Part shown: one piece after another, positions 214 through 19,908 of the stretch
Numbering within the stretch: position 1 is the first letter of the stretch
Layout of the letters: each line of letters starts with the position of its first letter
Assembly: GCA_965223295.1 (NCBI GenBank)
Contig: CBDCWC010000003.1
Coordinates: 192,001-256,000 of the forward strand
DNA from: Nitrospirales bacterium
Lineage (GTDB): Bacteria; Nitrospirota; Nitrospiria; Nitrospirales; UBA8639
Length of the DNA stretch: 64,000 bases
Direction of reading: 5' to 3'
Notes under the pieces: model-generated
What the model saw: the letters and a program-made list of their open reading frames with translations, nothing else
Databases searched by the model: none
What the model was told of the DNA's origin: nothing
Program-made: the position numbers and the translations under genes

Positions 214-834
214 ATGCCACTCCTGCCTGATACTCCACATGTTACATCAGCCCCAGACACAGATTCACTAAATTCCGACAGAGAGGATCAGGAATCGAAA
301 TATCGTGCACTCCTTCACCAGATGGCCTTGGGAAAAGAAGCCGCACTCACCGAGTTTTATCACACCTTCGAAGCAAAAATTTATGCATTTGTGAAAATTC
401 GTTTAAACGATTCACATGATGCAGCCGACTTACTCAATGACATCATGTGGGAAATTTGGCGGGGAGCCGGTAAATTTGAAGGTCGTTCTTCTGTCACCAC
501 TTGGGTGTTTGGAATTGCCCGTCACAAAGTGATTGATCGTATTCGCAATCGCGGAAAACACCCTGTGGAACCCTTGGAAGTGACCACTGAAAAAGAATCA
601 GACTATGATTTGGAGGGCATCATTGTACAAAAGGAAATGGGAGAACATCTTCAGCATTGTCTCCAGAAGCTCTCGCCGGACCATCATCAGACAGTCCATC
701 TGGCATTTTTTGAAGATTTGTCATATCGAGAAATTGGAGAAATTGTGGGCAGCCCGGAAGGTACCATCAAAGCGCGCATGTTTCATGCCAAGCAGGCACT
801 CAAACGCTGTTTAGCTAGACGCATTCGTGAGTAA
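214..834 (+). CDS. ECF RNA polymerase sigma-70 factor (paralog 1)
   Basis: Region 2 (DLLNDIMWEIWRGAGKFEGRSSVTTWVFGIARHKVIDRIR) and region 4 (LSYREIGEIVGSPEGTIKARMFHAK). Start placed at ATG 214 after GGAGG (201-205) instead of TTG 100. Confidence 0.93.
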   Translation: MPLLPDTPHVTSAPDTDSLNSDREDQESKYRALLHQMALGKEAALTEFYHTFEAKIYAFVKIRLNDSHDAADLLNDIMWEIWRGAGKFEGRSSVTTWVFGIARHKVIDRIRNRGKHPVEPLEVTTEKESDYDLEGIIVQKEMGEHLQHCLQKLSPDHHQTVHLAFFEDLSYREIGEIVGSPEGTIKARMFHAKQALKRCLARRIRE

Positions 835-846
835 CGAGAGGACTGT

Positions 847-1461
847 ATGAGTAAAACTTCAACAGACAAACAAGAGCACCCGGATAAATTGCTACCATGG
901 TTTGTCAACGAAACACTCTCAAGTAACGAACGAGATGATGTCGCGCAACATGTTCAAGCTTGCTCCCGATGTCAACAGGAAATTGCTCTGCTCCAACGAA
1001 TAAGGACACATATCAAAGAAACGCACACTCAATCTCCGGGAGAATTTGGCCTTAAGCGGCTCCTGTCCGAAATTCGAAAGGAACAGGCTGTCACCAAAGT
1101 AGAACGACTAAGACCTTCTGGATGGTGGCAAAAAGGATTTGCCATTGCGGCTTCGTTGATCATTTTTATCCAAGCTGGATTTCTCTTGGATGCCTGGTAT
1201 TTGTCCAAACCGATGGTTCCGCTAGCTGGTCCACAAACACATGAACAAGTCCTGCAGATCTCTTTTCAACCAACTGCGACAGAAGCACAAATACGAGAAG
1301 CGATGAGTCATATTCATGGAACATTTATCGATGGGCCAAGTTCTTTAGGCCTTTATCGAGTTCGTCTCAATACGGCAGCCTCTCCTGAAACACCCATCCG
1401 ACAAACCATTGAACAACTTCGCCAACAGACGACAATCATCCAACATGTTGCAGAAGACTAA
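847..1461 (+). CDS. Zinc-binding anti-sigma factor (zf-HC2/ZAS), single TM, periplasmic C-terminal domain
   Basis: HVQACSRC (HxxxCxxC) motif, hydrophobic helix FAIAASLIIFIQAGFLL, immediately downstream of the ECF sigma. Confidence 0.88.
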   Translation: MSKTSTDKQEHPDKLLPWFVNETLSSNERDDVAQHVQACSRCQQEIALLQRIRTHIKETHTQSPGEFGLKRLLSEIRKEQAVTKVERLRPSGWWQKGFAIAASLIIFIQAGFLLDAWYLSKPMVPLAGPQTHEQVLQISFQPTATEAQIREAMSHIHGTFIDGPSSLGLYRVRLNTAASPETPIRQTIEQLRQQTTIIQHVAED

Positions 1462-1477
1462 AGATGGAGGCAATGAT

Positions 1478-2854
1478 ATGCTGAGCCAATTTTTTCAACT
1501 TGCCGTAACATTGTCACTCATTCTTAGCTCAATCTCTGTAATCTCCTGTACCACCTCCACACCTCAGAGTCAATCGATTCAATCTCCCTCCGAACAACAG
1601 AAGCAGCTTGTCGGATCACGAATCAACAATCAAGACACCGCCCGTGCATTTGATCGTCTCCGAACCAGAGGCCTTCGAGATCACGAGGATATTGATCTGA
1701 ATAGGCTCGAGCCTGGGGAAGTGTGTGTGATAAATGTGAATGAAGCCGACGCCAGAAAATTAGATGAATTCGCACAAGCCAGAGGTTACACCAAGAAAAA
1801 ACGCCGGATACTCAACAACCTCGGGTTCGTGATGAGTATTTTCCACGCACCGCCCGGACAAAGTCTCCAGGAAGCAATCCTGGCGATCCAAGAAGCTTTT
1901 CCGTCACAAATCATCGACGCAAACCATCACTATTACCTACAGGAGCAGACCCTGCCGATCAATCCTCTTCTCTACGGACACCGACTAGTAGGGTGGACTG
2001 ATCACGCCATTGGTTGTGTCATCCATGAGATATCAATCGGAATGATTGACACCGCAGTGAATATGAGACGTCTCCCGGCAAAACAACGCACAATTCACAC
2101 CAAATCATTTATCCCTCCCAATGCATCAAAGCCTCAGGATTATCATGGAACAGCGGTGGCCACACTTCTCGTTGGGCAAGCTCACACAACAAACCATGCC
2201 TTACTTCCCCAAGCTTCGTTGTTCGTGGCAGAGGCATTTCGGCAAAAAGAAGCCGGCAAGGTCGAAGCAACTACTTGGAGTATCGTACGAGCGTTGGACT
2301 GGCTCGTAGAACAACATGTACAAGTCATTAATCTTAGTTTAGGGGGTCCACCGAATGCCTTGCTTTCCTATGCCATCACCACGACCCTAAACCAGAGCAT
2401 ACCAATTGTTGCTGCTGGAGGAAATGCAGGCCCTGACGGACATCCCATCTATCCAGCCGCACAACCTGGCGTCATTGCCGTAACAGCATTAGACGCAAAA
2501 CTTCATCCGTATCGTTACGCCAACAGAGGGTCTTACATTTCGTTTTCTGCTCCAGGCGTCGACATATGGATCCCTCAAGAAGGTGGGACCGGGGCCTTTC
2601 AATCTGGAACATCATTTGCGACTCCATTTGTCACAACGGCAACCGCTGCAGTCAAACAATTAAACCCGCATTGGACTCCAGATCAAATTGTATACCAACT
2701 AGCTCGTACGGCTGTGGACTTGGGAACCACAGGCAAGGATGAAACCTTTGGTTGGGGACTCATCCAAATTCCACACACTTGTCCAAATACCTCGTCATCT
2801 CTTCACACTCAATCCTCTAGCATGAATCCTGATTCAAAAAGAGTGAAGCATTGA
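1478..2854 (+). CDS. S8 subtilisin-like serine protease, probable lipoprotein
   Basis: Triad motifs IGMIDTAV, YHGTAVA, SGTSFATP; oxyanion AAGGN; signal/lipobox ISVISC; GGAGG before ATG 1478. Confidence 0.9.
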   Translation: MLSQFFQLAVTLSLILSSISVISCTTSTPQSQSIQSPSEQQKQLVGSRINNQDTARAFDRLRTRGLRDHEDIDLNRLEPGEVCVINVNEADARKLDEFAQARGYTKKKRRILNNLGFVMSIFHAPPGQSLQEAILAIQEAFPSQIIDANHHYYLQEQTLPINPLLYGHRLVGWTDHAIGCVIHEISIGMIDTAVNMRRLPAKQRTIHTKSFIPPNASKPQDYHGTAVATLLVGQAHTTNHALLPQASLFVAEAFRQKEAGKVEATTWSIVRALDWLVEQHVQVINLSLGGPPNALLSYAITTTLNQSIPIVAAGGNAGPDGHPIYPAAQPGVIAVTALDAKLHPYRYANRGSYISFSAPGVDIWIPQEGGTGAFQSGTSFATPFVTTATAAVKQLNPHWTPDQIVYQLARTAVDLGTTGKDETFGWGLIQIPHTCPNTSSSLHTQSSSMNPDSKRVKH

Positions 2855-3015
2855 TAGCAAAAAATCACTAACTTTTCGAACGATACTGCCCTTAGTTCCC
2901 CTTCCCCAGAGACTCCAAAAGCGTGAAGTGACCTAGCGAAAATAGATTGATTCCAACAGAAGTGCTCACTTTTAGAATAGATCCGTGCCCATCCTTCAAT
3001 TTTGCTCAAAATAAT

Positions 3016-3047
3016 TACAACCATTTTCCTTCACACTACCACTTACC
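3016..3047 (+). promoter_or_regulatory. Putative ECF-sigma promoter (-35/-10), copy A
   Basis: TACAACC-N16-CCACTTACC; same bipartite motif and spacing recur at 3836, 8172 (minus) and 19168. Confidence 0.6.
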
Positions 3048-3144: not shown

Positions 3145-3741
3145 ATGATGCCAAAATTTATTATATATCTATATCTCTTGCTATCTTTCGGACTCACTAG
3201 TTCAATCTCACCGATCCATGCCGAGGTTCGTCTCATTCACAACACCCTCACAGTTGATAGCCACAATAAGACCTTGAAGGATGTTCTGGATGACCTACGA
3301 CAACAAGGAAATTTCAACATTGTCGCCTTTGAAGAAACAATAATCGGCAATGTGAGAATATCCAAACAATTCTGGAACCTCCCACTTGAAAAAGGTTTAG
3401 ATCGACTTCTCAGTGGCTGGAATTACGGAATCAACCGTGATGGATCAACAGGCAAAATTACCGTACTGTATCTTGTTTCTCAGCGGAAAGGCCCAGCACC
3501 TTTCTCTCGTGTTCTATCGGCCTCCATAGCACAACCATCAAGTTACAATGCCTATGAGGCACAAACTTGGCCAACGGGTTTGAGCGAAACCCATAACGCG
3601 CAATCCACCGATTCTGACGATGAAGAAGAGGACAAAGAGTTTACAAGCGAATTAGATTCCCTCAGCGAGCATGAGCTCAAAAATCTCCCACCTGACCTCC
3701 GTAAACAAGCTATAAATTTGTACCGAAATGACCACTCTTAG
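3145..3741 (+). CDS. Hypothetical secreted protein, possible STN/secretin-N0-like domain with acidic tail
   Basis: Signal peptide ending IHA; LTVDSHNKTLKDVLDDL...LPLEKGLDRLL resembles N0/STN domains; GAGGAGG RBS. Confidence 0.6.
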   Translation: MMPKFIIYLYLLLSFGLTSSISPIHAEVRLIHNTLTVDSHNKTLKDVLDDLRQQGNFNIVAFEETIIGNVRISKQFWNLPLEKGLDRLLSGWNYGINRDGSTGKITVLYLVSQRKGPAPFSRVLSASIAQPSSYNAYEAQTWPTGLSETHNAQSTDSDDEEEDKEFTSELDSLSEHELKNLPPDLRKQAINLYRNDHS

Positions 3742-3835: not shown

Positions 3836-3867
3836 TACAACCAAAATGCTCATGTTGACGACTTACC
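3836..3867 (+). promoter_or_regulatory. Putative ECF-sigma promoter, copy B
   Basis: TACAACC-N16-CGACTTACC, 46 nt before ATG 3914. Confidence 0.7.
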
Positions 3868-3913: not shown

Positions 3914-4612
3914 ATGAACATCACCTCGATCTTACACCAAATAATAAATGGGAATTATCTATGTAGAAGACAAACAATGAAGAATGAAGAACCATGGACT
4001 TCGACACAGGAGCGTTGGGAAAAGGAGGAACGATGCCAAGAGCTTGACGTGCACTTTAATTGTGTAGCCTCAAGCAAGCAGCCAGTGCTGCTATGGAAGT
4101 ACGAAGACACAGATACCTCGGAAGTTGCCAAGTTGTTGCACAAAAGGAGTCCCTTTTGCAAGCATCACCTTGTGACCGTATCTTGTCGAACCGACCCTTT
4201 CAAGACTTGGGGAATGGCTCTGTCTCAGCTTATCGTGCCACATCAACCCAGAACGGACGAACAACCTGCAGACCCAATTACCATGGTTCCTGGTGGAACG
4301 TTGTTTATCAATGATCTAGAGTTCTTGCCTTTTGAACTACAACGCCTGCTCTATGCGTTATTGGATCAAGATGGAGTCATTCGATTTATGGGTAAGAATG
4401 CCCACGGCGTTGAAATCAGAGTCATAGCCTCCACGACTACAGATATTTGGAAAAAATGCCAAGAAGGATTCTTTCACGCCAGTCTCTTGTATCAACTCAA
4501 TCGTTTAAACGTCCATGACCTCTCCTGTCCTATGCATTCACTACTCTCGTTCAAAAAAAGTGATCGCCTGTCTCCAGACGATATGCCCCCTCTCAAGCGC
4601 ATAATTCATTGA
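3914..4612 (+). CDS. Stand-alone degenerate sigma54-interaction (bEBP AAA+) domain protein 1
   Basis: Aligns to bEBP core (PVLLW...VTVSC...GGTLFIND...LPFELQRLL...IRVIAST...LLYQLN) but Walker A, GAFTGA and Walker B are altered; no HTH or sensor domain. Confidence 0.75.
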   Translation: MNITSILHQIINGNYLCRRQTMKNEEPWTSTQERWEKEERCQELDVHFNCVASSKQPVLLWKYEDTDTSEVAKLLHKRSPFCKHHLVTVSCRTDPFKTWGMALSQLIVPHQPRTDEQPADPITMVPGGTLFINDLEFLPFELQRLLYALLDQDGVIRFMGKNAHGVEIRVIASTTTDIWKKCQEGFFHASLLYQLNRLNVHDLSCPMHSLLSFKKSDRLSPDDMPPLKRIIH

Positions 4613-5363: not shown

Positions 5364-7970
5364 TTACGGCGTACCCATAAAGAACTGATCAGTTTCTGAT
5401 TCAAAGGGTTCTGTCTCATCATCGATAGAATTCAAGAGGATGATCAGATCTTTCCTTTGCTGCTCACTGAGTGCGCCCTGAATAGTAGAATTTCCTAACT
5501 GGTGCACCGCAAACACTTCCTCAAAGTTTTGCGCACTCCCATCATGTAGGTACGGGGCACCAAAACGGATACCGAGTAACGAGGGCACATTAAAGGCGCC
5601 TTGTGCAGTTAAGGATGCGAATCCTTGTGTGGACTGCCCTGCAATGGCGCCTGCCCCGCGAATTTCAATCGGGCTGTTTGGGTCAAACGTGCCGACGTTC
5701 TCGACGAATCGGAGCGTGCGGTTGCCATCCGCAACAGCAACAATCTGGGGTCCAGCTACCATCAGAGCTGGATCTATTGGTGGAACACCATCAAAGAAAT
5801 TTATCCCTAATGGGTCCACATTGAAGGTGGGGTTATTCTGATACAAAGGACTGGTTCGGCTCTTTGTCCACTTACTCCCACCATGGCAGGACGCACAATT
5901 CGTGGCAAAGACGGTTCGCCCTGTATCAACATCCGCTGGATTCGGCATATTGGGAGACCGGATTGTGGCGATCCACTCGTGCATGGCGTCCAGCGCATCA
6001 CTAACGCCCACCACAGGCCCATGATTAAAGATTTCTGCCGCTTTGTTCTCGCCATTGACATCTGTGGCATGACCAATTCCACCCTGAACGCCCCGTGAGT
6101 TTTGATCAAAGTCCGTAGACGGCGACCCTCGCACCCCGTTCCAGTTCATGATCCGTTGATCAGTCAAATCATTTTTGGTAAATGAACCGGCCAGCTCGAT
6201 GGTTTGTCGCGGACCTGTCGGAAACAGCCAGGTGACCCCATCCATGTGACCATCCTCATGACAGGAAGAACAACTGCTCCAACCATCCTTTGAGGCCTTG
6301 CCCCGAAACTGCAGAGGCTCGATGTTGCGAAGGTCAATATCAAACAGCCCGTCGCCACTGATATCGTGCACATCGGGGATACCCAATGCAGTAAAGAAGA
6401 GCAACTTACCAACTAGGGTCCGATGTTCCGGACTTCCTGCGGGAGGCGGTGTGCTCGAGGGAATATCTCGATTCAACACCTGATTCGATCCTAGATCAAT
6501 TGAAGTCACGGATGTGTTGATCTCGTTGTTGGTATATGCCCGGGTCGCTCCTGAATCAATGACCACGCCACTGGGCATATTTCCAGTCTGCAAACGAATG
6601 ACGTTATCCGGAGCACCAATATCCAGCTTCCCAGAATTATCAAGCTCCGCAGGCAACAGCACGTTACCGCCGCGACTGAGGATAAAGAATTTCTTGCCCT
6701 GGCCATCCGCGTCCATCGCTACGACATCGTTCAGAAAAAGACGGTCCAAGTTTCCTGGCTCCTGAAGCGGTGGCGTTTCGCTGGCTACCTGCGTATTGAG
6801 ATTGAGCGTGAAGTCGTGCTCGCCGCCGTTTTTCTTGTTTTTCTTTCTATCAACTACGGAGACTAAGGCTTGGACATTGTTGTTAAAGATGACCGGAGGT
6901 TCCGGCTGTGCACCAACATTCAGCACATAGAGGTTGTCGCCACGAAGCAGGGCCGCATAGAGGAGGTTCGGATAGACCCCCTGCGGGTCGGAACCAATTG
7001 GCCCATCCGGAGAAGCATCATGGCTATTGGGATCAGGACAGAACACTTCATTGGCCAACAGAGCTGCACCGTCTCCTTGCCTATCTTTTCCACTACTGAA
7101 GAATACGACATCGCCATTATCCTGGAGAATTTGACGAGTCTTGAGACAGAATTGCCGACGGTCCGCCTTAAACCCTGAGTCACCGGGAGGCAAGGTCACT
7201 TGCTTAATCCGGCCCGAAAGGATGGATTGCAAAATCGGCGAGTCTTTTCCAAGCCTGTCCGCCAATCTTGCAGTCGTTAATCCATGAATGACCTTAAAGG
7301 AATCCACGACACCCTGCTTGGCATCGTCAAATCCATCGGGTCTGGCTGGATCGATGAGCTCGCTAAAAAACCGTGTGACATACACGCGTTCATCAATATC
7401 GACTCTGTTGCCATTGTCTGTAATGGCAATGGCCATGGGGTTACCACCTGTCGGCACAGCCCCGATAACCTTCAAGGATTTCATGTCGATAAGAGAGACA
7501 TCACCCGAAGTGTGATTTGCCACAAATGCAAACTGGCCATTTGGCGTCAGAGCAATCCCTCGTGGTTCCTCACCGACCTGAAGCGGGTTTCCATTAAGAG
7601 CCGGAGGGTGAGACATCAAATCAATAACCGAGACAGTGCCATCTCTTCCGTTCGTCACCAAAGCCTTTTTGTCGTCGGGACTAATAGCGACAAATCGGGG
7701 ATCTCGCCCTACTGCAATCTCAGCGATCAAATTCTCCACATCATTCCCATGTTCGTCCCGTACTTCAAGGATCGAGACACTGTCTGCTTGACGATTGACG
7801 ACAACTAAGCGCCGGTCATCAGAAGTCAGTGCGATAGTCGTCGACCGAGTTGGCATTGGCGGAGGCTTTTCAAATTTCCTCTCCATAGAATTCCCTGGAA
7901 TGGGTGTAATGAACTCTAGAGTGAGCCCAAGAACTAAAAGGGTCGAGAATACTCGCGTAAGCTTTCGCAT
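5364..7970 (-). CDS. Secreted YVTN/YncE beta-propeller fused to di-heme cytochrome c (bCcP/MauG superfamily-like)
   Basis: Signal peptide; propeller repeats (VGRDPRFVAISPD, VGEEPRGIALTPNG); heme motifs CSSCH and CASCH; C-terminal FNVPSLLG..APYLHDGS; AAGGAGG before ATG 7970. Confidence 0.85.
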   Translation of the reverse strand: MRKLTRVFSTLLVLGLTLEFITPIPGNSMERKFEKPPPMPTRSTTIALTSDDRRLVVVNRQADSVSILEVRDEHGNDVENLIAEIAVGRDPRFVAISPDDKKALVTNGRDGTVSVIDLMSHPPALNGNPLQVGEEPRGIALTPNGQFAFVANHTSGDVSLIDMKSLKVIGAVPTGGNPMAIAITDNGNRVDIDERVYVTRFFSELIDPARPDGFDDAKQGVVDSFKVIHGLTTARLADRLGKDSPILQSILSGRIKQVTLPPGDSGFKADRRQFCLKTRQILQDNGDVVFFSSGKDRQGDGAALLANEVFCPDPNSHDASPDGPIGSDPQGVYPNLLYAALLRGDNLYVLNVGAQPEPPVIFNNNVQALVSVVDRKKNKKNGGEHDFTLNLNTQVASETPPLQEPGNLDRLFLNDVVAMDADGQGKKFFILSRGGNVLLPAELDNSGKLDIGAPDNVIRLQTGNMPSGVVIDSGATRAYTNNEINTSVTSIDLGSNQVLNRDIPSSTPPPAGSPEHRTLVGKLLFFTALGIPDVHDISGDGLFDIDLRNIEPLQFRGKASKDGWSSCSSCHEDGHMDGVTWLFPTGPRQTIELAGSFTKNDLTDQRIMNWNGVRGSPSTDFDQNSRGVQGGIGHATDVNGENKAAEIFNHGPVVGVSDALDAMHEWIATIRSPNMPNPADVDTGRTVFATNCASCHGGSKWTKSRTSPLYQNNPTFNVDPLGINFFDGVPPIDPALMVAGPQIVAVADGNRTLRFVENVGTFDPNSPIEIRGAGAIAGQSTQGFASLTAQGAFNVPSLLGIRFGAPYLHDGSAQNFEEVFAVHQLGNSTIQGALSEQQRKDLIILLNSIDDETEPFESETDQFFMGTP

Positions 7971-8171: not shown

Positions 8172-8203
8172 AGTGAGTCGTTTGAACAAAAGAATTGGTT
8201 GCA
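8172..8203 (-). promoter_or_regulatory. Putative ECF-sigma promoter, copy C
   Basis: Minus strand TGCAACC-N16-CGACTCACT, pointing at the cytochrome gene. Confidence 0.7.
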
Positions 8204-8332: not shown

Positions 8333-8620
8333 TCAATCAAGCACATTCTTCGAAAAACCTAGGGAATGCGCGATGTTCGTCACGGCGGTGGGGCAGTTCA
8401 GCAAATAGACATTACTGCGCATATGCTCAAAGAGTTTTTCAACCCCCTTTTGCGTGACAATAACAAGATGACAAAATTCTATAATGAACTGCTTGTTCGT
8501 ATGCATAAAAAGAGACTCCAGCCAATTCGACCAATCATCAAGATCGCTCTCAACAATCTCTCCTTCTACCTTGAAAAGAACGGTTTGTTCATTTTCAAAA
8601 ATTTTTTTAATTCGAAACAT
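8333..8620 (-). CDS. STAS-like (anti-anti-sigma-like) small protein
   Basis: LFKVEGEI...FIIEFCHLVIVTQKGVEKL...VYLLNCPTAV follows the STAS pattern; GAGGAGG RBS before ATG 8620. Confidence 0.65.
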   Translation of the reverse strand: MFRIKKIFENEQTVLFKVEGEIVESDLDDWSNWLESLFMHTNKQFIIEFCHLVIVTQKGVEKLFEHMRSNVYLLNCPTAVTNIAHSLGFSKNVLD

Positions 8621-8666: not shown

Positions 8667-8682
8667 TTCAATACACATGCCA
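8667..8682 (-). promoter_or_regulatory. Sigma54-like -24/-12 promoter (variant -12)
   Basis: TGGCATG-TGTA-TTGAA; GG-N10-GA rather than GC; 46 nt upstream of the STAS start. Confidence 0.5.
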
Positions 8683-11474: not shown

Positions 11475-11490
11475 TGGCATTCATATTGCT
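11475..11490 (+). promoter_or_regulatory. Sigma54 -24/-12 promoter upstream of ECF paralog 2
   Basis: TGGCATT-CATA-TTGCT (GG-N10-GC), 69 nt before ATG 11560, divergent from the bEBP gene. Confidence 0.8.
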
Positions 11491-11559: not shown

Positions 11560-12186
11560 ATGCTAGCCCCTCATCATCCCACATCAGCCCTAAACAAAGA
11601 CTCCTTGCGCAAACAAATGGAACACACACGAAGCAAGGACAATGATCATCACCAAGCGCTCATAACGAAAATGGCGAGAGGGAGTGAAGAGGCCTTATCG
11701 GAATTTTACCGGATCTTTGAGAAAAAGATTTATGCGTTCGTGCAAATCCGTTTAAACGATTCTCATGATGCCACCGACTTACTGAATGAAATCATGTGGG
11801 AGGTTTGGAAGGGCGCTGCGCGGTTTGAAGGTCGTTCAGCGGTCACAAGCTGGGTCTTTGGAATCGCTCATCACAAAATCGTTGATCGCATACGAAGCAA
11901 AACTCGGCATCCCACGGAACAACTTGAAACCATCGAATCTTATGAATCAGATCTCGATCTTGAAACCCTTGTAGGAAAGAGGCAGTTAGGGAGCCATATT
12001 CAACATTGCATGGAGAAGTTATCTCATGAACAGCGGCAGGTTGTACATTTCGCGTTCTTTGAAGACTTCTCGTATCGGGAGATCAGTGAGATCGTTGGGA
12101 GTCCAGAAGGCACGATTAAGGCACGAATGTTTCATGCCAAGCAAGCACTCAAACGCTGCCTAGCAAGACGGCTCAAAGCAGATTGA
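11560..12186 (+). CDS. ECF RNA polymerase sigma-70 factor (paralog 2, no adjacent anti-sigma)
   Basis: Close paralog of 214..834, with identical EIVGSPEGTIKARMFHAKQALKRCLARR. Start at ATG 11560 (or 11617), downstream of the sigma54 promoter. Confidence 0.93.
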   Translation: MLAPHHPTSALNKDSLRKQMEHTRSKDNDHHQALITKMARGSEEALSEFYRIFEKKIYAFVQIRLNDSHDATDLLNEIMWEVWKGAARFEGRSAVTSWVFGIAHHKIVDRIRSKTRHPTEQLETIESYESDLDLETLVGKRQLGSHIQHCMEKLSHEQRQVVHFAFFEDFSYREISEIVGSPEGTIKARMFHAKQALKRCLARRLKAD

Positions 12187-12268: not shown

Positions 12269-13240
12269 ATGGTGGCAAAATATCGGAATAACCTACCACA
12301 ACTATCCGATGAAATATTTCTTACTGATGGTGGCATGGAAACGACGCTTGTATTCCATGAGGGGTTGGATCTTCCTGCCTTCGCGGCCTTTACGTTGCTT
12401 AAAGCAGAAGAGGGACGACAAGCCATGCGTGAGTATTTTGATCGCTATATTCCACTCGCCACTAAAAACGAGCTGGGGTTTGTGCTGGAAAGCCCTACAT
12501 GGCGAGCGAATCCAGACTGGGCCGCGAAAATTGGGTATGGGCCAGAGGATTTGCATGCGGCGAATCGCGAGGGAATTTCTTTTATAGAAGAAATTCGTGG
12601 TCGCCATGAAACAACGCAGTCTAAAATGCCAATAAGCGGCTGCATCGGCCCCCAGGGCGATGGATATAATCCCTCCTGTTTTATGAGTGCAGAAGAAGCC
12701 GAACAATACCATCAGTCGCAAATTGATACGTTCAAGGATACAGCTGCTGACTTTGTCACGTCCTTTACGATCTGCTATGCGGAGGAAGCTATTGGTATCA
12801 CGCGGGCCGCCCAGAATGCGGGTATACCCGTCACTATAGGCTTTACCCTTGAGACAGATGGAAGGCTTCCAAGTGGGCAATCTCTCAAAGATGCCATTGA
12901 GCAAGTCGATGGCGAAACGGGAAATCTTCCCATTTACTACATGGTCAATTGTGCTCACCCTACGCATTTTATGAATGTGTTCGTGGGCGAACCTTGGGCA
13001 GAACGTATCCGCGCGATCCGTGCCAACTCTTCAAAAATGAGCCATGCAGAGCTAGATAATGCTGAAAAGTTGGATGAAGGCAACCCGCAAGAGTTTGGGC
13101 AGGAATATCTTCTGTTACGTTCAAAACTCCCAAACCTAAATATACTTGGCGGTTGCTGCGGCACAGACCATCGTCATGTGGAAAGTGTGTGCCAGATATG
13201 GCTGAGAGATAGCCATGAAGTTTTGGCCGGGCAAAACTAA
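12269..13240 (+). CDS. Homocysteine S-methyltransferase family protein
   Basis: LTDGGMETTL, VNCAHP and ILGGCCGTD zinc-binding motifs. Confidence 0.92.
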   Translation: MVAKYRNNLPQLSDEIFLTDGGMETTLVFHEGLDLPAFAAFTLLKAEEGRQAMREYFDRYIPLATKNELGFVLESPTWRANPDWAAKIGYGPEDLHAANREGISFIEEIRGRHETTQSKMPISGCIGPQGDGYNPSCFMSAEEAEQYHQSQIDTFKDTAADFVTSFTICYAEEAIGITRAAQNAGIPVTIGFTLETDGRLPSGQSLKDAIEQVDGETGNLPIYYMVNCAHPTHFMNVFVGEPWAERIRAIRANSSKMSHAELDNAEKLDEGNPQEFGQEYLLLRSKLPNLNILGGCCGTDHRHVESVCQIWLRDSHEVLAGQN

Positions 13241-13352
13241 TCTGATACGGAGGGAAATAGTGAAGGAGCTAGATAATTCCCGAATGTTTCCTGCCAAGCA
13301 AGCGCTCAACCGCTGTTTGTCCAGAAAGATCAAATAATCTTGAGGAGTTTGC

Positions 13353-14102
13353 ATGAGTTCTAGATCTTTACAGAAATCGACAACCAGCTACCAACACCAA
13401 ATTGTCCTAGCAATGGCAGCATGGGCAATCTGGTTCATGATGACAGGGTCTGTACTCAGTTACGGGGCAGACAACGACATACAGGTCTTCCAACACGGTG
13501 ATGACAATCAAGCCACCTTGACGAACACCGGGCAATCGAATCGAGCGGTGGTGACACTAGGGGGTAACCATAGCGAAGTACGCATTGAACAGGTCGGTGA
13601 GAACCATCAGGCTGAACTGACGCAAGATGGAGAAGACAATCTCCTCACCGTTTATCAAGAGGGAGAGGACCATACAGCAAATATGACGCAAGGGTTGAAC
13701 ACAGTGGGCAACACCATCAGCTTGGAGCAAATCGGCATGGCCCATACGGCTACGGCCATCCAAGAAGGGGCTTTGAACTTGATCGCGCAACAGCAACAGG
13801 GATTTGATAACCAACTGGAAGCCTACCAAGATGGCGACAACAACCAGATCAAGCAAGAACAAGAGGGGTCTGGTAACCGAGCGACGGCCCGCCAAGTTGG
13901 AGACGGAAACAGCATTGCCCAAACACAAATGGGAAATGACAATCAGTCAGACGCTCTACAATTCGGTCAGGATAACAGCATCACCCATACACAAGTCGGC
14001 GATGGGTTAGCCTATTCGGTGGTGCAAGAGGGACATGGGATGGAGATCACGATCACGCAAGACATGTTGGGCACCGTGGTCACACCTCCCCCCGGGCAGT
14101 GA
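13353..14102 (+). CDS. Curlin-repeat protein (minor curlin/CsgB-like)
   Basis: Signal peptide followed by repeated Q-x-G-x-x-N-x-A-x-x-x-Q units. Confidence 0.85.
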   Translation: MSSRSLQKSTTSYQHQIVLAMAAWAIWFMMTGSVLSYGADNDIQVFQHGDDNQATLTNTGQSNRAVVTLGGNHSEVRIEQVGENHQAELTQDGEDNLLTVYQEGEDHTANMTQGLNTVGNTISLEQIGMAHTATAIQEGALNLIAQQQQGFDNQLEAYQDGDNNQIKQEQEGSGNRATARQVGDGNSIAQTQMGNDNQSDALQFGQDNSITHTQVGDGLAYSVVQEGHGMEITITQDMLGTVVTPPPGQ

Positions 14103-14108
14103 CACTTC

Positions 14109-14196
14109 GTCATTCCCGCGTGGGCGGGAATCTAAATTCGCCAGTCACGAAGCTGGTGAAGAAAGGTGGATACCCGCCACATTCTGCGGGTATGAC
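14109..14196. repeat. REP-type inverted pair
   Basis: GTCATTCCCGCGTGGGCGGGAATCTA ... TGGATACCCGCCACATTCTGCGGGTATGAC; a degenerate second repeat family follows (~14218-14275). Confidence 0.7.
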
Positions 14197-14464
14197 AAGA
14201 TTTGGGATTAGGACACATGGTTCGAACAGGTTCACATGACACGTATCGAAACCTCATTCTGAGTTCGTCGAAAAATGGTTTAACAGGGACATCTTAGATG
14301 GGTGACATATAAAACATTCTGCTAGCGTTTAAGGGAAGAAACGCTAGAACCATTCTACGCAGCAGGGCAACGCGCGAGTCCGCAAGCGAAGGATGAAAAA
14401 GAAGGCTTCCCAAATAAAAAGTATTGTTCACCAACACATTTCATGTTTAACAAGGAGAATGATC

Positions 14465-15103
14465 ATGAACCATCGATCACTTATACACACATCAGTAAGC
14501 AGTTTATTCATGCTTGCATTGCTCACTGCCGGGACTGGGGTCTCGGCACAAGATAACGTTGCGGACTTCTTGCAGGAGGGCGACGACAATGTCGCGACCA
14601 TTGTCCAAGTCCCGGACGCTGAGGGAGTGGAAGCCTTTATTAGTCAAGCCGGCGATGACAACACGGCGGAAATCGTCCAAAACCAGAACTCCTCACACAA
14701 TCTGGCTATCATCGACCAAAGCGGCGATGGAAACAACACGGATATTAACCAATTTGGAGGCTCATCCAACAACGTGGCTATGATCGACCAAAGCGGCGAT
14801 GACAATAATGCGCTAATCCAGCAAAATCTAAACTCCGTCGACAATGTGGCCACCGTCGACCAAAGCGGCAATGACAACTCCGCATTTCTCGAACAAATCA
14901 ATGGTACTGAAAACAATACAGCCTCCATTGATCAAAGCGGCGATGACAATTCGGCCGCCATTTTCCAACTTGGCACGAACAACGTCGCCAGCGTGGATCA
15001 ATCGGGAGATGACAATGAGGCCAATGTGAACATGATTGACAATTTCGACATGGTGTCTGTGGTGCAATCTGGCAATGGTAACGTAGCCAATTACAACCCA
15101 TGA
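14465..15103 (+). CDS. Curlin (CsgA-like), about 8 repeats
   Basis: Signal peptide ending VSA; repeats N-x-A-x-I-D-Q-S-G-D-x-N-x-A-x-I-x-Q; AAGGAGA before ATG 14465. Confidence 0.88.
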   Translation: MNHRSLIHTSVSSLFMLALLTAGTGVSAQDNVADFLQEGDDNVATIVQVPDAEGVEAFISQAGDDNTAEIVQNQNSSHNLAIIDQSGDGNNTDINQFGGSSNNVAMIDQSGDDNNALIQQNLNSVDNVATVDQSGNDNSAFLEQINGTENNTASIDQSGDDNSAAIFQLGTNNVASVDQSGDDNEANVNMIDNFDMVSVVQSGNGNVANYNP

Positions 15104-15240
15104 ATTGAAGAGTTCATGGATGGATAAGGGCCTGGGGAGGGAGATAACCCTCCCTCCACAGCCAAAGAAGAATAGTACATGGACCACAATTAACCACTCA
15201 TTTTCAGCCTAGCTGGTAATGTTGACGAAAGAGGATTGAA

Positions 15241-16467
15241 ATGAAACATCGATCATTCAGACATACATCAATCACCAGTCTATTCGTGCTTGCATTGCTC
15301 ACTGCCGGAACCGAGGTCTCGGCACAAGATAACGTGGCGGACTTCCTACAGGAAGGAGATAACAATGTAGCCACCATACTTCAAGTCCCGGATGCTGAAG
15401 GAGTCGAGGCTATTATTAGTCAAGCCGGAAATGACAACGAGGCGGAAATTGAGCAAGCGGGGGAGGATATTGCCCACCTTGTTGTTTCTATCAACCAAAG
15501 CGGCGATGGAAACGACGCGGATATCCTCCAAGAAAATGACTCCTCGAACAACGTAGCCTCTATCAACCAAAGTGGCAATGGGAACGATGGGGAGATCAAC
15601 CAAGAGTTGAACTCTTCCAACAACGAGGCCACCATCGACCAAAGTGGCGATGGGAACAATGCGGATGTCCTCCATGAGATAGACTCGTTTGACAACGTTG
15701 GCTCCGTCGATCAAAGCGGAAATGACAACCTTGCAGATATTACCCAAGATTTTGACTCCGCGAACAACGTAGCCTCTATCGACCAAAGTGGCGATGGGAA
15801 CACGGCCGATATTAACCAGAACGAGGATTCTGAAAACAATACAGCCTCCATTGATCAAAGTGGCGATGACAATGTAGCGGAAATCAACCAAAGTCTGGAA
15901 GCCGGAAACAATGAAGCAAACATCACTCAAGATGGGGACGGCAACTTTGCGAAAGTTGAACAAGATGAAGCAGCCGAAGGCAATGTAGGTTCTATCGACC
16001 AGAGTGGCGACAACAACGAGGCGGGCATTACTCAAGACGATGTCTCGGAAAACAATGTTGCCAACATCAATCAGAGTGGGAATAACAACTTTGCGGAGCT
16101 TGAGCAGCAAATCACTTCTTCCCACAACACAGCCTCCATCGTCCAAAGCGGAGATGGCAATGAGGCAACTCTCGAACAGCTACTCACTTCTTCCCACAAC
16201 ACAGCCTCTATCGTCCAAAGCGGTAACACGAATGCAGCTAACATAAATCAAAGTCTTAACTCTGAAAACAATGAAGCCACGATTGACCAAAGTGGCAATG
16301 ACAACTTGGCAAGTATTAATCAGAGTGTTGACAGTATGAACAATGTAGCCAGTGTGGACCAATCCGGCGACAATAACGAAGCCTTAATTAATATGACCGG
16401 TCAAGAATTTGATGTGGTGAATGTTGTACAGTCAGGGAATGGCAATGAGGCCTTTTATAACCCATGA
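15241..16467 (+). CDS. Long curlin (CsgA-like), 16 repeats of about 24 aa
   Basis: Signal peptide nearly identical to the preceding gene; 16 QxG-x-x-N repeats with a 72-nt period; strongly acidic. Confidence 0.9.
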   Translation: MKHRSFRHTSITSLFVLALLTAGTEVSAQDNVADFLQEGDNNVATILQVPDAEGVEAIISQAGNDNEAEIEQAGEDIAHLVVSINQSGDGNDADILQENDSSNNVASINQSGNGNDGEINQELNSSNNEATIDQSGDGNNADVLHEIDSFDNVGSVDQSGNDNLADITQDFDSANNVASIDQSGDGNTADINQNEDSENNTASIDQSGDDNVAEINQSLEAGNNEANITQDGDGNFAKVEQDEAAEGNVGSIDQSGDNNEAGITQDDVSENNVANINQSGNNNFAELEQQITSSHNTASIVQSGDGNEATLEQLLTSSHNTASIVQSGNTNAANINQSLNSENNEATIDQSGNDNLASINQSVDSMNNVASVDQSGDNNEALINMTGQEFDVVNVVQSGNGNEAFYNP

Positions 16468-16892
16468 ATCAAAGATCTCACAGAGGCTTTAGTGGCATGA
16501 TTACTTGGAGAGCGAGTGCCCACCTTCCTGGGTGGGTGCTCTGCCTAGGGGTTGGCCTCTGGTTATGTTTGGGACCAGTTGAGGCAGGGCAATCTTCTCT
16601 CCACACGGCAGATGAGGAAGCACAGATGGATACGAATCAGCAAATCATCATCCAAGAAGGCCAGAATAATCACAAAGCCATCACCCAGGATGGTGAGCAT
16701 CTGAAGCTGCGCCTGGAGCAGCGCGGAACCGATAACAAGTCAACCATTACTCAACAAGGTAATGACAATCAGGCGGAGTCGATTCAAGAGGGTGATCGCA
16801 ACAGTAGTCGCATTCGTCAAAAAGGTTCTGGCAACCGAGCCGCCATTCGACAGGATGGTTCTTCGCGAACCAAGAAGCGAGAGACCTCATGA
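16464..16892 (+). CDS. Short basic curlin-repeat protein (CsgB-like nucleator candidate)
   Basis: Signal peptide; QEGQNN, QRGTDN, QQGNDN, QKGSGN repeats; ATGA overlap with the preceding gene. Confidence 0.8.
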   Translation: MNQRSHRGFSGMITWRASAHLPGWVLCLGVGLWLCLGPVEAGQSSLHTADEEAQMDTNQQIIIQEGQNNHKAITQDGEHLKLRLEQRGTDNKSTITQQGNDNQAESIQEGDRNSSRIRQKGSGNRAAIRQDGSSRTKKRETS

Positions 16893-17332
16893 GAAACACG
16901 CTGCCCCGTTACATACTCTTGCAAGTCGGGCTACAAATGTGGTGTCTCGTTTTTATCATGGGCTTGCTCTCGCCCATGGCGACTCTGGCTGTGACGCCGC
17001 CCCGAGAAGATGAAACAGACGATACTTTCTTGGGGATTGCGGGCTTGGTCGTGGATGAAACACGCACGGTAGCGGGGCGACGATTTTTCGAAGGCCTCGC
17101 TTCTCAATTGACGGATCTTGGGGGACAGACAGAGAACATTGTGGTGACCGAGCTGGCAGATCCCCGCTTTGGCAGCCGCCTCTCAGTCAACGTGGGACCC
17201 GCACTCGTCTTTCGGCGATTTTTGGCCCCGCGGCTGGGAGATGTCGACAAGGAAGTGGAATTGGCGGTATCCAGAGTCCATCGAGTATTGAACATGGCAC
17301 ACCAGCTTCAGCAAGCATTGGAGATGTACTAA
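16889..17332 (+). CDS. csgE: Curli assembly protein CsgE
   Basis: GLVVDETRTVAGRRFFEG...IVVTELADPRFGS matches CsgE; position before csgF/csgG. Confidence 0.85.
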   Translation: MRNTLPRYILLQVGLQMWCLVFIMGLLSPMATLAVTPPREDETDDTFLGIAGLVVDETRTVAGRRFFEGLASQLTDLGGQTENIVVTELADPRFGSRLSVNVGPALVFRRFLAPRLGDVDKEVELAVSRVHRVLNMAHQLQQALEMY

Positions 17333-17399
17333 TGGGCCATGAGTGGCGACACCTTCGTCGTCAAAGCACACATTGGATAGGCCACAAGGGAGGGTTGAG

Positions 17400-17825
17400 A
17401 TGAAATGTTTTTTTATACTTCTTTCGCTAATATTTTCCTTTTTCACGTGGGATGGCAACGTGCATCAATCAGCAGCCTCGGAACTCCGGCATACCTTTAC
17501 GAATCCGAATTTTGGGGGCAACCCGTTTAATGGTCAACCTCTCTTAAATTCCGCTGTCTTACAGAATGATTTTGACGGAGAGGAGGACGACAGTCGGCCC
17601 GGAGTCCTTGAAGATTTTCAGACTCGCTTAGATCGGGCTATTTTCAATCGCCTGTCCCGCGAAATTGTGGCGGAAGCCTTCGGCGAGGACAGTGACCTCA
17701 CCCCAGGCACCTTTGATACAGGGGATTTTCAGATTGACATCTCCGAAGATGTCGACGGGGTGACGGTTGGCATCGTGGACAAGCTGACGGGGGATACCAC
17801 CACCATCCAAGTTCCGTTTTTTTAA
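17400..17825 (+). CDS. csgF: Curli assembly protein CsgF
   Basis: Mature N-terminus SELRHTFTNPNFGGNPFNGQPLLNSAVLQN and C-terminal TGDTTTIQVP. Confidence 0.93.
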   Translation: MKCFFILLSLIFSFFTWDGNVHQSAASELRHTFTNPNFGGNPFNGQPLLNSAVLQNDFDGEEDDSRPGVLEDFQTRLDRAIFNRLSREIVAEAFGEDSDLTPGTFDTGDFQIDISEDVDGVTVGIVDKLTGDTTTIQVPFF

Positions 17826-17867
17826 TGCCATGGCATTATTGTGATTTTGATAAGGAGATGTGTTGTC

Positions 17868-18785
17868 ATGAACGTACACCGGAAATTTCTTATTCTCGTT
17901 GGATACCTCGTCTGCGTATTCAGTGGCTGTTCCCCGATGATTCAGCCGATGAGCAGTGGCAAGGCCGTGGTTGGATATGAGTCGCACGTGTTCGAACAAT
18001 TGGCCGCCCTCCCACCCCCGTCCGAACCCATTGTGGTCTCAGTGTATAAATTTCGTGATCAGACGGGCCAGTACAAACCCAGTGACACCGTGCTGCAGTA
18101 TTCCACAGCCGTCACGCAAGGAGCCACCTCCCTCTTGATTAAAGCGTTGATGGATGCAGGACAAGGCACATGGTTTACGGTATTAGAGCGAGAAAACTTG
18201 TCAAGTCTGTTAAATGAACGGAAAATCATTCGCCAGACACGCAAGCAGTACACCAATGGAAACAGCACATTGCCGCCCTTACCGCCGCTCCTCTATGCCC
18301 CGATCATGTTGGATGGCGGGATTGTGGCCTATGAATCCAATTTGCTCAGCGGCGGCATGGGAGCTCGATATTTTGGAGCTGGAGGATTCACAGAATTTCG
18401 TCGCGATACGGTGACGGTCGATTTGCGAGCGATTTCTGTGAAGCGCGGGACGATTCTCAAAACCTTGCAAACCCGTAAAACGATCTTTTCTGCCAAATTA
18501 GAGGGAGGGTTATTTCGATTTGTGGATCCATTGCGTCTTTTTGAAGCAGAAATCGGGATATCAAGCAACGAACCACCGCAAATGGCAGTACGGGAAGCCA
18601 TTGAAATGGCCGTGTACGGCCTGATTTTGGATGGAGTCGGCAGCAATCTCTGGTCATTCGCAGATCCAGAAGCTGCCGCCCCAATCATCGCGGATTACCT
18701 TGAAGAAAAAGAAGAACAACTGGTTGCTCAATTGAATACCGCAAAAAACCAAACAGAAAGTTCTTCTTCAGAGTATGAATGGTAA
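17868..18785 (+). CDS. csgG: Curli secretion pore lipoprotein CsgG
   Basis: Lipobox FSGC; VSVYKFRDQTGQYKP, STAVTQGA, WFTVLERENL..LLNERKIIR, NEPPQMAVREAIE. Confidence 0.96.
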   Translation: MNVHRKFLILVGYLVCVFSGCSPMIQPMSSGKAVVGYESHVFEQLAALPPPSEPIVVSVYKFRDQTGQYKPSDTVLQYSTAVTQGATSLLIKALMDAGQGTWFTVLERENLSSLLNERKIIRQTRKQYTNGNSTLPPLPPLLYAPIMLDGGIVAYESNLLSGGMGARYFGAGGFTEFRRDTVTVDLRAISVKRGTILKTLQTRKTIFSAKLEGGLFRFVDPLRLFEAEIGISSNEPPQMAVREAIEMAVYGLILDGVGSNLWSFADPEAAAPIIADYLEEKEEQLVAQLNTAKNQTESSSSEYEW

Positions 18786-18919
18786 GCGATCATTCGCTTT
18801 GACCAATGGTTGCGTACAATTTTGTCGTTTCTCTCCTAAACCTCTTTCTCCGCTCATCCCCTCTCCCATCTCATGGAGCTAAGAAGTCTGGTCTACACTC
18901 ACACCCCTTTTATACTTTA

Positions 18920-19131
18920 GAGTCTGTTGAAAAAAACCGTCAGCGGCGTTCTCGCCATTTTTCCGTGCTCACGTAGGACCAGTCCGCTCTGTACGCAAAA
19001 ATGGCTGTGGCCTTTCTAGACGGACTCTTCGACAGACTCAGTGAATGCTTTTTGAACCAACCCGAGGCCGCTCATCGTCTACGGGTCCCTGACGAAATAT
19101 GCCCCTTGATATCTTCATTATTCAACACTCC
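18920..19131 (+). repeat. MITE/REP-like element copy
   Basis: CTGTTGAAAAAA..CAGCGGCGTTCTCGCCATTTTTCCGTGCTCACGTA ... ATTATTCAACACTC. Confidence 0.85.
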
Positions 19132-19167
19132 TTTTTATTATAAAATCATTCTCAAGTGTAAGTAATC

Positions 19168-19199
19168 TTCAACGATTACCCGTGTTCTTACGACTTACC
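19168..19199 (+). promoter_or_regulatory. Putative ECF-sigma promoter, copy D
   Basis: TTCAACG-N16-CGACTTACC just upstream of degenerate bEBP 2. Confidence 0.65.
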
Positions 19200-19233
19200 T
19201 ATTGATACGCTTAACGGCAACAGACTTCAAGAA

Positions 19234-19908
19234 GTGAGTCAAAAGATGAAGGGCTATGAAACCTGCAACCCTTACGATTGTAAGGCAACAATGTTCGAAT
19301 TGAGATTAGACATGGGGAAAAAGAGCGAAAACCATAGAAGGATTGCCTTACCATCACAACCCTGGAAGGCGGCTTGGGCCATCGACAAGAGTGAGGATCA
19401 ATTGGCCCATATTGCCGTGGTGGATCCACCTGTATTTTTATGGAAGAACCGAAACGCAGACACCATCACGAGAAATTTCGCTCGTGCTATTCACGAAAAA
19501 AGCCGATTTGCTAAGCAGCCATTTATGACGATCTCCTGTCAATCAAATCCACAGTCTTCCTGGAAACAAGCGATGGCGCAGTTGAAGTTCCGTAGTTCTT
19601 TTGACACGATGAGCATCTCACTGAAAAGTGAACTGGAAACCTGTATCCCCGGGGGCACCCTCTATCTAGATGAGGTCGCAGCCTTACCTTGGGAGCTACA
19701 GCGTGGGTTATTAGCGTTGATTGATCATGACGGGTTGATTCGGTTTGTACGCGCCGATAGACAAGAGGTGGAAGTTCGTATCATCTCAGCCTCAACGATG
19801 GAACTCTGGAACACAATTGCAAAGGGGACGTTGCGTGCAGACCTCTTTTTCCGGCTCAACGTGCTAGCGATGCGAGTCCCCTCCCAAACAGTGAACGTTC
19901 AGGCATAA
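19234..19908 (+). CDS. Stand-alone degenerate sigma54-interaction (bEBP AAA+) domain protein 2
   Basis: PVFLWKNRNADT replaces Walker A; GAFTGA absent; retains GGTLYLDEV and LRADLFFRLN; start uncertain. Confidence 0.78.
   Translation: MSQKMKGYETCNPYDCKATMFELRLDMGKKSENHRRIALPSQPWKAAWAIDKSEDQLAHIAVVDPPVFLWKNRNADTITRNFARAIHEKSRFAKQPFMTISCQSNPQSSWKQAMAQLKFRSSFDTMSISLKSELETCIPGGTLYLDEVAALPWELQRGLLALIDHDGLIRFVRADRQEVEVRIISASTMELWNTIAKGTLRADLFFRLNVLAMRVPSQTVNVQA

What the first reader, a model, noticed from the sequence alone, without database searches (positions are those of the whole stretch)
214..19908. Candidate undescribed regulatory circuit: sigma54 activator -> orphan ECF sigma -> catalytically dead bEBP modules, wrapped around a curli locus
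Seen: an intact PAS-PAS bEBP (9194-11020) lies divergent from a consensus sigma54 promoter (11475-11490). That promoter precedes an ECF sigma and, co-directionally, the curli genes. A shared ECF-type promoter motif precedes two stand-alone bEBP AAA+ modules lacking Walker A and GAFTGA, plus two secreted-protein genes. A near-identical ECF with its own anti-sigma and protease sits at the left end. Known: bEBPs work as AAA+ hexamers and need Walker A and GAFTGA; enterobacterial curli is controlled by CsgD, which is absent here. Inference: bEBP/sigma54 turns on ECF2 and curli; the ECFs induce the dead AAA+ subunits, which could co-oligomerise with the bEBP and poison or tune it. ECF1 would give a second, envelope-sensing input.
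Basis: partly seen in the sequence, partly recalled or inferred. Interest (0 to 1): 0.9.

Follow-up and report, generated by a model that had tools for sequence, protein, structure and literature searches.

The report
Dead activator subunits in sigma cascade
In a few Nitrospirales bacteria, a two-step gene switch also turns on conserved, enzymatically dead copies of an activator's motor domain, which probably jam the activator as a built-in brake; the curli (biofilm fibre) genes here are a swappable payload, not part of the core.

Summary
Genes and motifs are real. The dead AAA+ modules form a small family under purifying selection (dN/dS about 0.2); none of 13 has Walker A, GAFTGA or the lid. 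Activator, sigma54 site, ECF2, methyltransferase and dead2 recur in a second genus without curli: curli is an insert. Corrections: the ECFs are 64% identical; a third dead module lies elsewhere; the activator's likely binding sites sit 2.3 kb from the ECF2 promoter. New: a second ECF promoter inside the sigma gene, with fixed synonymous codons, faces the anti-sigma (ECF1) or methyltransferase-curli (ECF2). A model docks dead2 on the activator at the ring interface (0.84, best control 0.35), possibly from likeness to solved rings. Best reading: HrpRS-HrpL-HrpV-like feedback with a pseudo-ATPase cap as brake (0.4). No expression or binding data. The scan noted an unrelated dead module on other DNA (e1-2190258).

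The parts
214..834 (+). ECF1 sigma factor
   Evidence: Pfam Sigma70_r2/r4_2; orthologues in 10 of 251 genomes
405..433 (+). intragenic ECF-type promoter in ecf1 (AAACG-N16-CGACTTAC), facing anti-sigma and subtilase
   Evidence: PWM rank 6 genome-wide; synonymous codons fixed
847..1461 (+). anti-sigma factor (zinc-finger type, probable single TM)
   Evidence: zf-HC2 at cut-off, NCBIfam antisigma below cut-off; +1 to the ECF in all 10 genomes
1478..2854 (+). subtilase (S8)
   Evidence: +2 to ECF1 in all 10 genomes
3018..3046 (+). ECF promoter (CCAC variant of the -10)
   Evidence: PWM rank 1; perfect site after the subtilase in G015, G021, G147, G156, G201
3145..3741 (+). exported protein, no family
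   Evidence: no Pfam/NCBIfam hit; homologue at the same place in 6 other genomes
3838..3866 (+). ECF promoter of dead1
3914..4612 (+). dead1: lidless pseudo-ATPase bEBP module; P-loop, GAFTGA and arginine fingers lost
5364..7970 (-). exported beta-propeller + c-type haem protein (MbnH/peroxidase-like, below cut-offs)
   Evidence: absent from the G134 locus
8173..8201 (-). ECF promoter of the propeller-haem gene
   Evidence: PWM rank 2
8333..8620 (-). 95-aa protein, STAS-like by eye (recalled; no family hit)
   Evidence: 65% identical in G134; no hit
8667..8683 (-). sigma54-like promoter with GA at -12, before the 95-aa gene
   Evidence: conserved in G134; 8 such strings in the genome
9114..9144 (.). 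tandem palindromes CTGA(C/T)AT(A/T)TCAG, candidate bEBP binding sites
   Evidence: conserved with the same spacing in G134; 1 of 2 such pairs in the genome and the only intergenic one
9194..11020 (-). intact PAS-PAS-AAA+-HTH enhancer-binding protein (FhlA-like)
   Evidence: orthologue only in G134 of 250 others
11475..11490 (+). sigma54 promoter of ecf2-hmt(-curli)
11560..12186 (+). ECF2 sigma factor, no adjacent anti-sigma
   Evidence: clade of 3 sequences
11754..11782 (+). intragenic ECF-type promoter in ecf2, facing hmt and curli
   Evidence: PWM rank 5
12269..13240 (+). homocysteine S-methyltransferase family protein
   Evidence: 84% identical in G134
13353..16892 (+). four curlin-repeat genes (13353-14102, 14393-15103, 15241-16467, 16464-16892); inserted block
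   Evidence: block about 13259-19167 missing from the G134 locus
16889..18785 (+). csgE, csgF, csgG
   Evidence: 52-86% identical in G016 in another context
19170..19198 (+). ECF promoter of dead2
   Evidence: conserved in G134
19234..19908 (+). dead2: lidless pseudo-ATPase bEBP module; P-loop and GAFTGA lost, both arginine fingers kept

Best explanation
A widespread-in-family ECF switch (sigma, membrane anti-sigma, subtilase) transcribes exported-protein genes from CAAC(C/G)-N16-CGACTTAC promoters. A few lineages added a second input: a sigma54 promoter driving a paralogue, ECF2, that lost its anti-sigma, activated most likely by the neighbouring PAS-PAS bEBP. The ECFs also transcribe truncated AAA+ cores. 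These keep the arginine-finger (donor) face but have no P-loop, GAFTGA loop or lid, so one can dock on an active bEBP protomer but cannot accept the next: a ring-capping anti-activator that closes a negative loop, the job HrpV does in HrpRS-HrpL. Curli genes were inserted behind hmt and are probably read from the sigma54 promoter and from the promoter inside ecf2. Shown (sequence/comparative): genes, motif, selection, co-occurrence, motif loss. Inferred: that the motif is used by these ECFs (0.85), that this bEBP fires the ecf2 promoter (0.6), that dead modules bind bEBP AAA+ domains (0.55), that the net effect is inhibition of this bEBP (0.4), that curli is expressed through the cassette (0.6).
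For: Motif in 10 of 10 ECF genomes vs 21 of 241 others; 8 of 8 without the two genomes used to derive it. Sites I inspected in ECF genomes are intergenic and precede exported or secretion genes (Lcl_C, PEP-CTERM, RTX-repeat, Hcp, VgrG, PAAR), while the 3 inspected hits in ECF-less genomes lie inside ORFs. dead2 vs its G134 orthologue: dN 0.24, dS 1.22. 0 of 13 family members keep Walker A or GAFTGA; the second P-loop glycine is D/E in 12 of 13; 4 of 4 dead2-clade members keep both arginines, 9 of 9 dead1-clade members have Q for the second. bEBP orthologue, ECF2 and dead family each found only in G000 and G134 among 251; 8 ECF1-only genomes have no dead module. Complex model: 0.84 vs best control 0.35, runs agree in at least 71% of contacts, partner pLDDT at least 79; the mark was reached by 116 of 157 solved complexes and 2 of 215 mismatches; dead2 202-214 touches the bEBP P-loop (332-333) and sensor II/lid (517-532).
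Against: The model pass can come from memory of solved bEBP rings and does not say which of 21 intact bEBPs is the partner. Interface residues are no more conserved in the family than the rest (0.66 vs 0.64, p 0.33). The tree does not tie the dead family to the neighbouring bEBP. Co-occurrence rests on two genomes plus indirect contig matches and may be one event. No palindrome match (up to 2 mismatches) lies between the bEBP and the ecf2 promoter in either genome; the candidate sites are 2.3 kb away. dead3 and the G134 dead1-like gene lie outside the cassette. The intragenic promoter has A for C at the first -35 position and is lost in 2-3 of 13 ECF copies. No transcript or binding data.
Confidence: 0.4

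Rival explanations
1. The dead modules are ECF-induced anti-activators of other bEBPs (cross-talk that shuts down other sigma54 programmes when the export programme is on), not of the neighbour.
For: 21 intact bEBPs in the genome, none specially related to the family; three copies in two clades; dead1-clade proteins appear with ECF1-type sigmas on equal-length contigs (P0006/P0317, P0122/P0333, indirect).
Against: dead2 stays in the bEBP-ECF2 cassette in G134 and probably on the P0311 contig; none of 8 ECF1-only genomes has the family.
Confidence: 0.2
2. The modules no longer touch bEBPs; the fold was repurposed to bind something else (for example the orphan ECF2 as a soluble anti-sigma, or the 95-aa protein).
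For: Family-specific invariant tryptophans and a long branch; donor-face residues differ from the bEBP consensus at most positions (mean 0.28); ECF2 lacks its own anti-sigma.
Against: Both arginines and the following NxL are kept in the dead2 clade; the two invariant tryptophans lie in the modelled bEBP interface. Binding to ECF2 was not modelled.
Confidence: 0.22
3. dead2 is a FleT-like co-activator or tuner that lends arginine fingers in trans and stimulates the bEBP (positive loop), with dead1 as the inhibitory version.
For: 4 of 4 dead2-clade members keep both arginines and 3 of 4 keep Walker B DE; FleQ/FleT act together (PMC9542535, PMC7277832, passages).
Against: No lid, P-loop or GAFTGA, so the ring cannot continue past it; in HrpRS Walker A integrity of both partners is needed (PMC3105312, passage).
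Confidence: 0.12
4. The modules are decaying relics and the cluster is a chance pile-up at an insertion hotspot.
For: Very narrow range (2 of 251 genomes); the region is an insert relative to G015/G021; repeated palindromic elements in the spacers.
Against: Open frames of 196-235 aa in all 13 aligned members, dN/dS about 0.2, conserved promoter before all 5 genes read, same motif losses in both clades.
Confidence: 0.04

Closest known systems
HrpRS - sigma54 - HrpL - HrpV of Pseudomonas syringae
   Same: bEBP and sigma54 transcribe an ECF without anti-sigma; the ECF regulon encodes secreted functions and a protein that inhibits the bEBP (PMC5263251, passages: hrpV depends on HrpL and HrpV inhibits HrpS).
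   Different: Single PAS-PAS activator; the putative brake is a dead AAA+ paralogue, not HrpV; a second, anti-sigma-gated ECF shares the regulon; cargo is curli and other exported proteins.
FleT/FleQ (Rhodobacter sphaeroides), VnfA1/VnfA3, RedR1/RedR2 hetero-oligomeric bEBPs
   Same: A second AAA+ protein acts through a bEBP ring; FleT has neither sensor nor DNA-binding domain and is called the only known such bEBP (PMC7175178, passage).
   Different: Those are co-activators; these lack P-loop, GAFTGA and lid.
ECF33 subgroups s2/s3 (Casas-Pastor et al., PMC7826278 supplement, passages)
   Same: Zinc-finger single-TM anti-sigma at +1, subtilase at +2, AC in the -10.
   Different: ECF33 is listed as 100% Proteobacteria with -35 TGAACCTTT; here consensus TTGCAACCATTTT and a Nitrospirales host; no group HMM was available.
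Curli (csg) systems
   Same: Curlins, CsgE, CsgF, CsgG in one direction, no adjacent csgD, as in many non-enteric operons (PMC3521004, passages).
   Different: Placed behind a sigma54/ECF cassette; the same genes sit under other regulators in G016.

Membership tests
Active bEBP (9194-11020) | Walker A, Walker B, GAFTGA, arginine fingers, sensor II, HTH | tested here: met
Active bEBP (dead1, dead2) | AAA+ alpha/beta core of the sigma54-activator clade | tested here: met
   Pfam PF00158; models pLDDT 78 and 85 with best Foldseek hits FleQ, NtrC1, PspF, VpsR at E about 1e-10; the folding alignments held 50 ordinary bEBPs, which leans the model
Active bEBP (dead1, dead2) | Walker A GxxGxGK | tested here: not met
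   0 of 13
Active bEBP (dead1, dead2) | GAFTGA loop | tested here: not met
   0 of 13
Active bEBP (dead1, dead2) | lid subdomain with sensor II | tested here: not met
   all 13 end shortly after the arginine-finger strand; no AAA_lid_14 hit
FleT-type co-activator | no sensor or DNA-binding domain | tested here: met
FleT-type co-activator | needed for activation together with a partner bEBP | not testable with these tools
   needs reporter assay
HrpRS-HrpL-HrpV-type circuit | sigma54 promoter before an ECF lacking anti-sigma | tested here: met
   G134 keeps a 58-aa anti-sigma-like remnant after hmt
HrpRS-HrpL-HrpV-type circuit | ECF-induced protein inhibits the bEBP | tested here: inconclusive
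   promoter supported; binding only modelled
ECF33 | zinc-finger TM anti-sigma at +1 and subtilase at +2 | tested here: met
ECF33 | -35 TGAACCTTT and proteobacterial range | tested here: not met
   consensus from 22 sites vs passage
ECF33 | score against the group HMM | not testable with these tools
   no ECF group models held
Curli system | curlin repeats plus CsgE, CsgF, CsgG | tested here: met
   all above Pfam cut-offs

The most novel reading that the evidence does not exclude
Bacteria have evolved natural dominant-negative caps for sigma54 activators: lidless, P-loop-dead AAA+ cores that dock by the arginine-finger face and end ring assembly. Here they are the feedback arm of a sigma54-to-ECF cascade, in two flavours (arginine fingers kept or replaced), and the ECF also carries its own promoter inside its coding sequence so that it induces its anti-sigma or curli without inducing itself. 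Short stand-alone sigma54-interaction proteins seen in the ESM Atlas (13 hits, top three 158-169 aa, mostly Acidobacteriota) may be a much larger unrecognised class of the same kind.
Probability: 0.3. Interest if true: 0.85.

Novelty: new variant of a known kind. Interest (0 to 1): 0.62.

Why it matters
Known inhibitors of bEBPs are unrelated proteins (HrpV; PspA and NifL recalled) and known stand-alone AAA+ partners are co-activators. A conserved pseudo-ATPase subunit that caps the ring would be a new way to regulate sigma54 transcription and a ready probe of how subunits talk to each other in the hexamer; every link can be tested in E. coli. The work also defines the promoter and regulon of an uncharacterised Nitrospirales ECF that controls exported proteins (curli here; Hcp, VgrG and PAAR genes in G004), and a sigma promoter hidden in the sigma's own gene.

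Tried and rejected
Curli as core of the circuit: rejected. Relic hypothesis: rejected. Shared upstream motif as a leader peptide: considered from the sequence, dropped because dead2 has no start codon in that frame. Raw motif count in the genome vs shuffles: not enriched. Interface conservation test: negative. Descent of the dead family from the neighbouring bEBP: not shown. Top long hits of the representative search as fusions of a dead module with an active one: they are multi-AAA proteins with summed weak scores, not family members (part of the output was cut). JGI metagenome scan: 38 loci, best E 2e-12, none looked like family members by score; not examined further. sigma70/terminator scan: at chance level. 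Plasmid search for a characterised ECF relative: best 33% identity, uninformative. ECF motif upstream of ecf1, ecf2 or the curlin genes: none (best PWM scores negative). Binding of dead modules to ECF2 or of dead1 to the bEBP was not modelled. Literature searches listed no paper on this family, cassette or promoter; the library lacks most subscription papers, and the PMC7826278 supplement was cut when stored.
Full report
Host and data. The window is G000:C3:192001-256000 of a 3.78-Mb genome. A same-family, different-genus genome (G134; also reached as G074, record OZ245013.1, titled Nitrospirales bacterium; same coordinates) is the main comparison.

Observation. The bEBP has both Walker motifs, GAFTGA, lid and HTH. 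A sigma54 consensus lies at 11475-11490, one of 34 strict matches in the genome; it is conserved in G134 while the DNA upstream of it is not. rpoN is present in both genomes. The two ECFs are 64% identical. A methyltransferase gene sits between ecf2 and the curlins. tblastn shows a third dead module elsewhere, between proteasome and Pup-ligase-like genes (labels recalled from the translations).

The dead modules are a real family. A profile of the three copies finds ten database proteins at E 7e-63 or better, three of them this genome's copies or near-copies, then a drop to ordinary bEBPs at 3e-20; later searches add P0122 and P0271. Among 251 genomes of the order only G000 (3) and G134 (2) have them; the 8 other hits are weak matches in long frames (at most 12 candidates per genome were scored). 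In 13 aligned members none has GxxGxGK or GAFTGA and all stop before the lid. Losses are uniform: first P-loop glycine to K in 11 of 13, last to D/E in 12 of 13, switch Asn to Ser in 12 of 13, sensor I Asn to Thr/Ser in 13 of 13; Walker B DE survives in 6 of 13. There are two clades: dead2-type (4) keeps both arginine fingers, dead1-type (9) has Gln for the second. dN/dS for dead2 against its G134 orthologue is 0.20 at dS 1.2, like the anti-sigma (0.21); dead1 comparisons give 0.17-0.20 near saturation, and one pair was saturated. Models fold as the bEBP alpha/beta core, helped by ordinary bEBPs in the alignments.

The ECF promoter. Aligning DNA upstream of the dead genes gave CAAC-N17-CGACT(T/C)A (18 for dead3). 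In G000 alone the loose pattern is at chance (12 hits vs 15, 9, 5). In G134, 8 of 16 hits lie in or near the ECF cluster or before the distant dead gene (one of the 8 is inside an ORF), and four precede exported-protein genes not used to derive it. The strict pattern occurs in 10 of 10 genomes with a close ECF (27 sites) and in 21 of 241 without (one site each); leaving out G000 and G134, 8 of 8 (Fisher p 1e-8, overstated because kin are not independent). G209's single site is far from its ECF and, like one G201 site, was not inspected. Targets are mostly exported proteins: Lcl_C, PEP-CTERM, RTX-repeat, and in G004 Hcp, VgrG, PAAR.

Unexpected: ranks 5 and 6 are inside ecf2 (11754) and ecf1 (405). 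Across 13 ECF copies the -35-like TTA AAC GAT is fixed in 11 and the -10 C GAC TTA C in 10, although genome usage of TTA, AAC and GAC is 18%, 33% and 31% and the spacer codons vary. Codon identity at invariant residues is 0.82 in the segment vs 0.58 elsewhere (6 vs 73 positions, 12 sequences after dropping G021 as a near-copy of G015; p 0.003; segment chosen after seeing it). I read this as an intragenic promoter that lets the sigma induce its anti-sigma and protease (ecf1) or hmt and curli (ecf2). The first -35 base is A rather than C, and another constraint such as RNA structure is not excluded.

Synteny. G134 has ECF1-anti-sigma-subtilase-exported genes, then the 95-aa gene and bEBP (83%), sigma54 site, ECF2 (77%), hmt (84%) and dead2 (63%), with no curli there and no curlin in the genome (0 of 5 genomes searched). 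At the point where curli begins in the window, G134 has a 58-aa ORF starting like the anti-sigma, suggesting ecf2 is a duplicate whose anti-sigma decayed. Curli was found in 1 of 49 other genus members, G016, beside winged-helix/AAA/TPR regulators and with no close ECF. In G015 and G021 the ECF1 operon sits at the same chromosomal place without the 15-kb middle. The bEBP orthologue and ECF2 are confined to G000 and G134 among 251.

Which activator? Two conserved palindromes at 9114-9144, the only intergenic pair of the kind in the genome, lie just 3' of the bEBP, about 430 bp from a conserved sigma54-like site before the 95-aa gene and 2.3 kb from the ecf2 promoter; nothing similar lies upstream of ecf2. 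Enhancers can act over kilobases and serve two promoters (RocR, recalled), but the link from this bEBP to ecf2 is inferred from conserved adjacency only, with 21 intact bEBPs available.

Binding. ESMFold2 placed dead2 (42-220) on the bEBP AAA+ domain (296-552) with ATP and Mg at 0.84, best of three controls 0.35; runs agree in at least 71% of contacts, partner pLDDT at least 79; calibration 116 of 157 solved and 2 of 215 mismatched pairs reach the mark, and holds only roughly here. The interface is the ordinary ring one: dead2's arginine-finger face on the activator's P-loop, sensor II and lid. Such rings are solved, so the pass shows likeness, not binding. Both family-invariant tryptophans named in the interface (W70, W192) are suggestive, but interface residues as a set are not more conserved (p 0.33).

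Mechanism. A subunit with a donor face but no acceptor face should cap a growing ring; dead1 would also deny the neighbour its arginine finger. Being ECF-induced, this gives negative feedback. The topology equals HrpRS-sigma54-HrpL-HrpV (PMC5263251 and PMC9542535, passages). FleT is described as the only bEBP lacking both sensor and DNA-binding domains (PMC7175178, passages) and is a co-activator (PMC7277832, passage). Papers were seen as passages only (also PMC3105312, PMC3521004, PMC8999054, and the supplement of PMC7826278); others only as search listings. Eight searches listed no description of this family or promoter. The ESM Atlas gives 13 hits among short sigma54-interaction clusters, top three 158-169 aa and mostly Acidobacteriota (sequences not seen), and the scan noted an unrelated dead module in Verrucomicrobia (unchecked), so dead bEBP cores may be a broader class.

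Verdict. Observation confirmed; interpretation partly supported. A new variant of a known circuit, with an undescribed pseudo-ATPase family and an intragenic sigma promoter as the new elements, and curli as replaceable cargo. Interest 0.62; 0.85 if capping is shown.

Noticed in passing
L117:1351-6806 and L123:3336-3863 (G004): The same ECF promoter precedes VgrG, PAAR-M23 and two Hcp-like genes: this ECF may control type VI secretion parts in G004.
   Followed up: partly
L038:9570-9746 (G134): 58-aa ORF after hmt whose start resembles the anti-sigma's first helix; remnant or soluble mini anti-sigma for ECF2.
   Followed up: partly
L038:10685-16945 (G134): Array of small exported proteins after dead2, three Lcl_C paralogues and one unknown each with its own ECF promoter.
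   Followed up: partly
L001:7571-8565 (G000:C3:587571-588565): dead3 sits in the proteasome/Pup-ligase gene cluster and is followed by a partial repeat of the preceding gene's 3' end, suggesting insertion there; in G006 (L121) the two flanking genes are adjacent.
   Followed up: partly
window 8851-8980 and 18901-19140: Palindromic repeat elements with many genome copies (63 and 280 blastn hits).
   Followed up: partly
window 14103-14200: Long hairpin between the first and second curlin genes, single copy in the genome; possible transcript stabiliser or attenuator.
   Followed up: partly
G000:C3:867999-868903: Second homocysteine S-methyltransferase homologue matched in two pieces (possible frameshift).
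   Followed up: no
L117:10062-10646 (G004): The ECF match was listed with one internal TAG, apparently near its start; not examined.
   Followed up: no
L035:6632-19660 (G016): Curli operon flanked by two near-duplicate 975-980 aa winged-helix/AAA/TPR regulators.
   Followed up: partly
window 37161-38633: Tyrosinase-like protein with C-terminal repeats (recalled from the translation, not scanned).
   Followed up: no
window 61781-62451: IS3-like transposase frames inside a polysaccharide gene cluster (recalled, not scanned).
   Followed up: no
P0123-P0138, P0143, P0147: Proteins with two or three tandem sigma54-activator AAA+ domains, some with one degenerate domain.
   Followed up: partly
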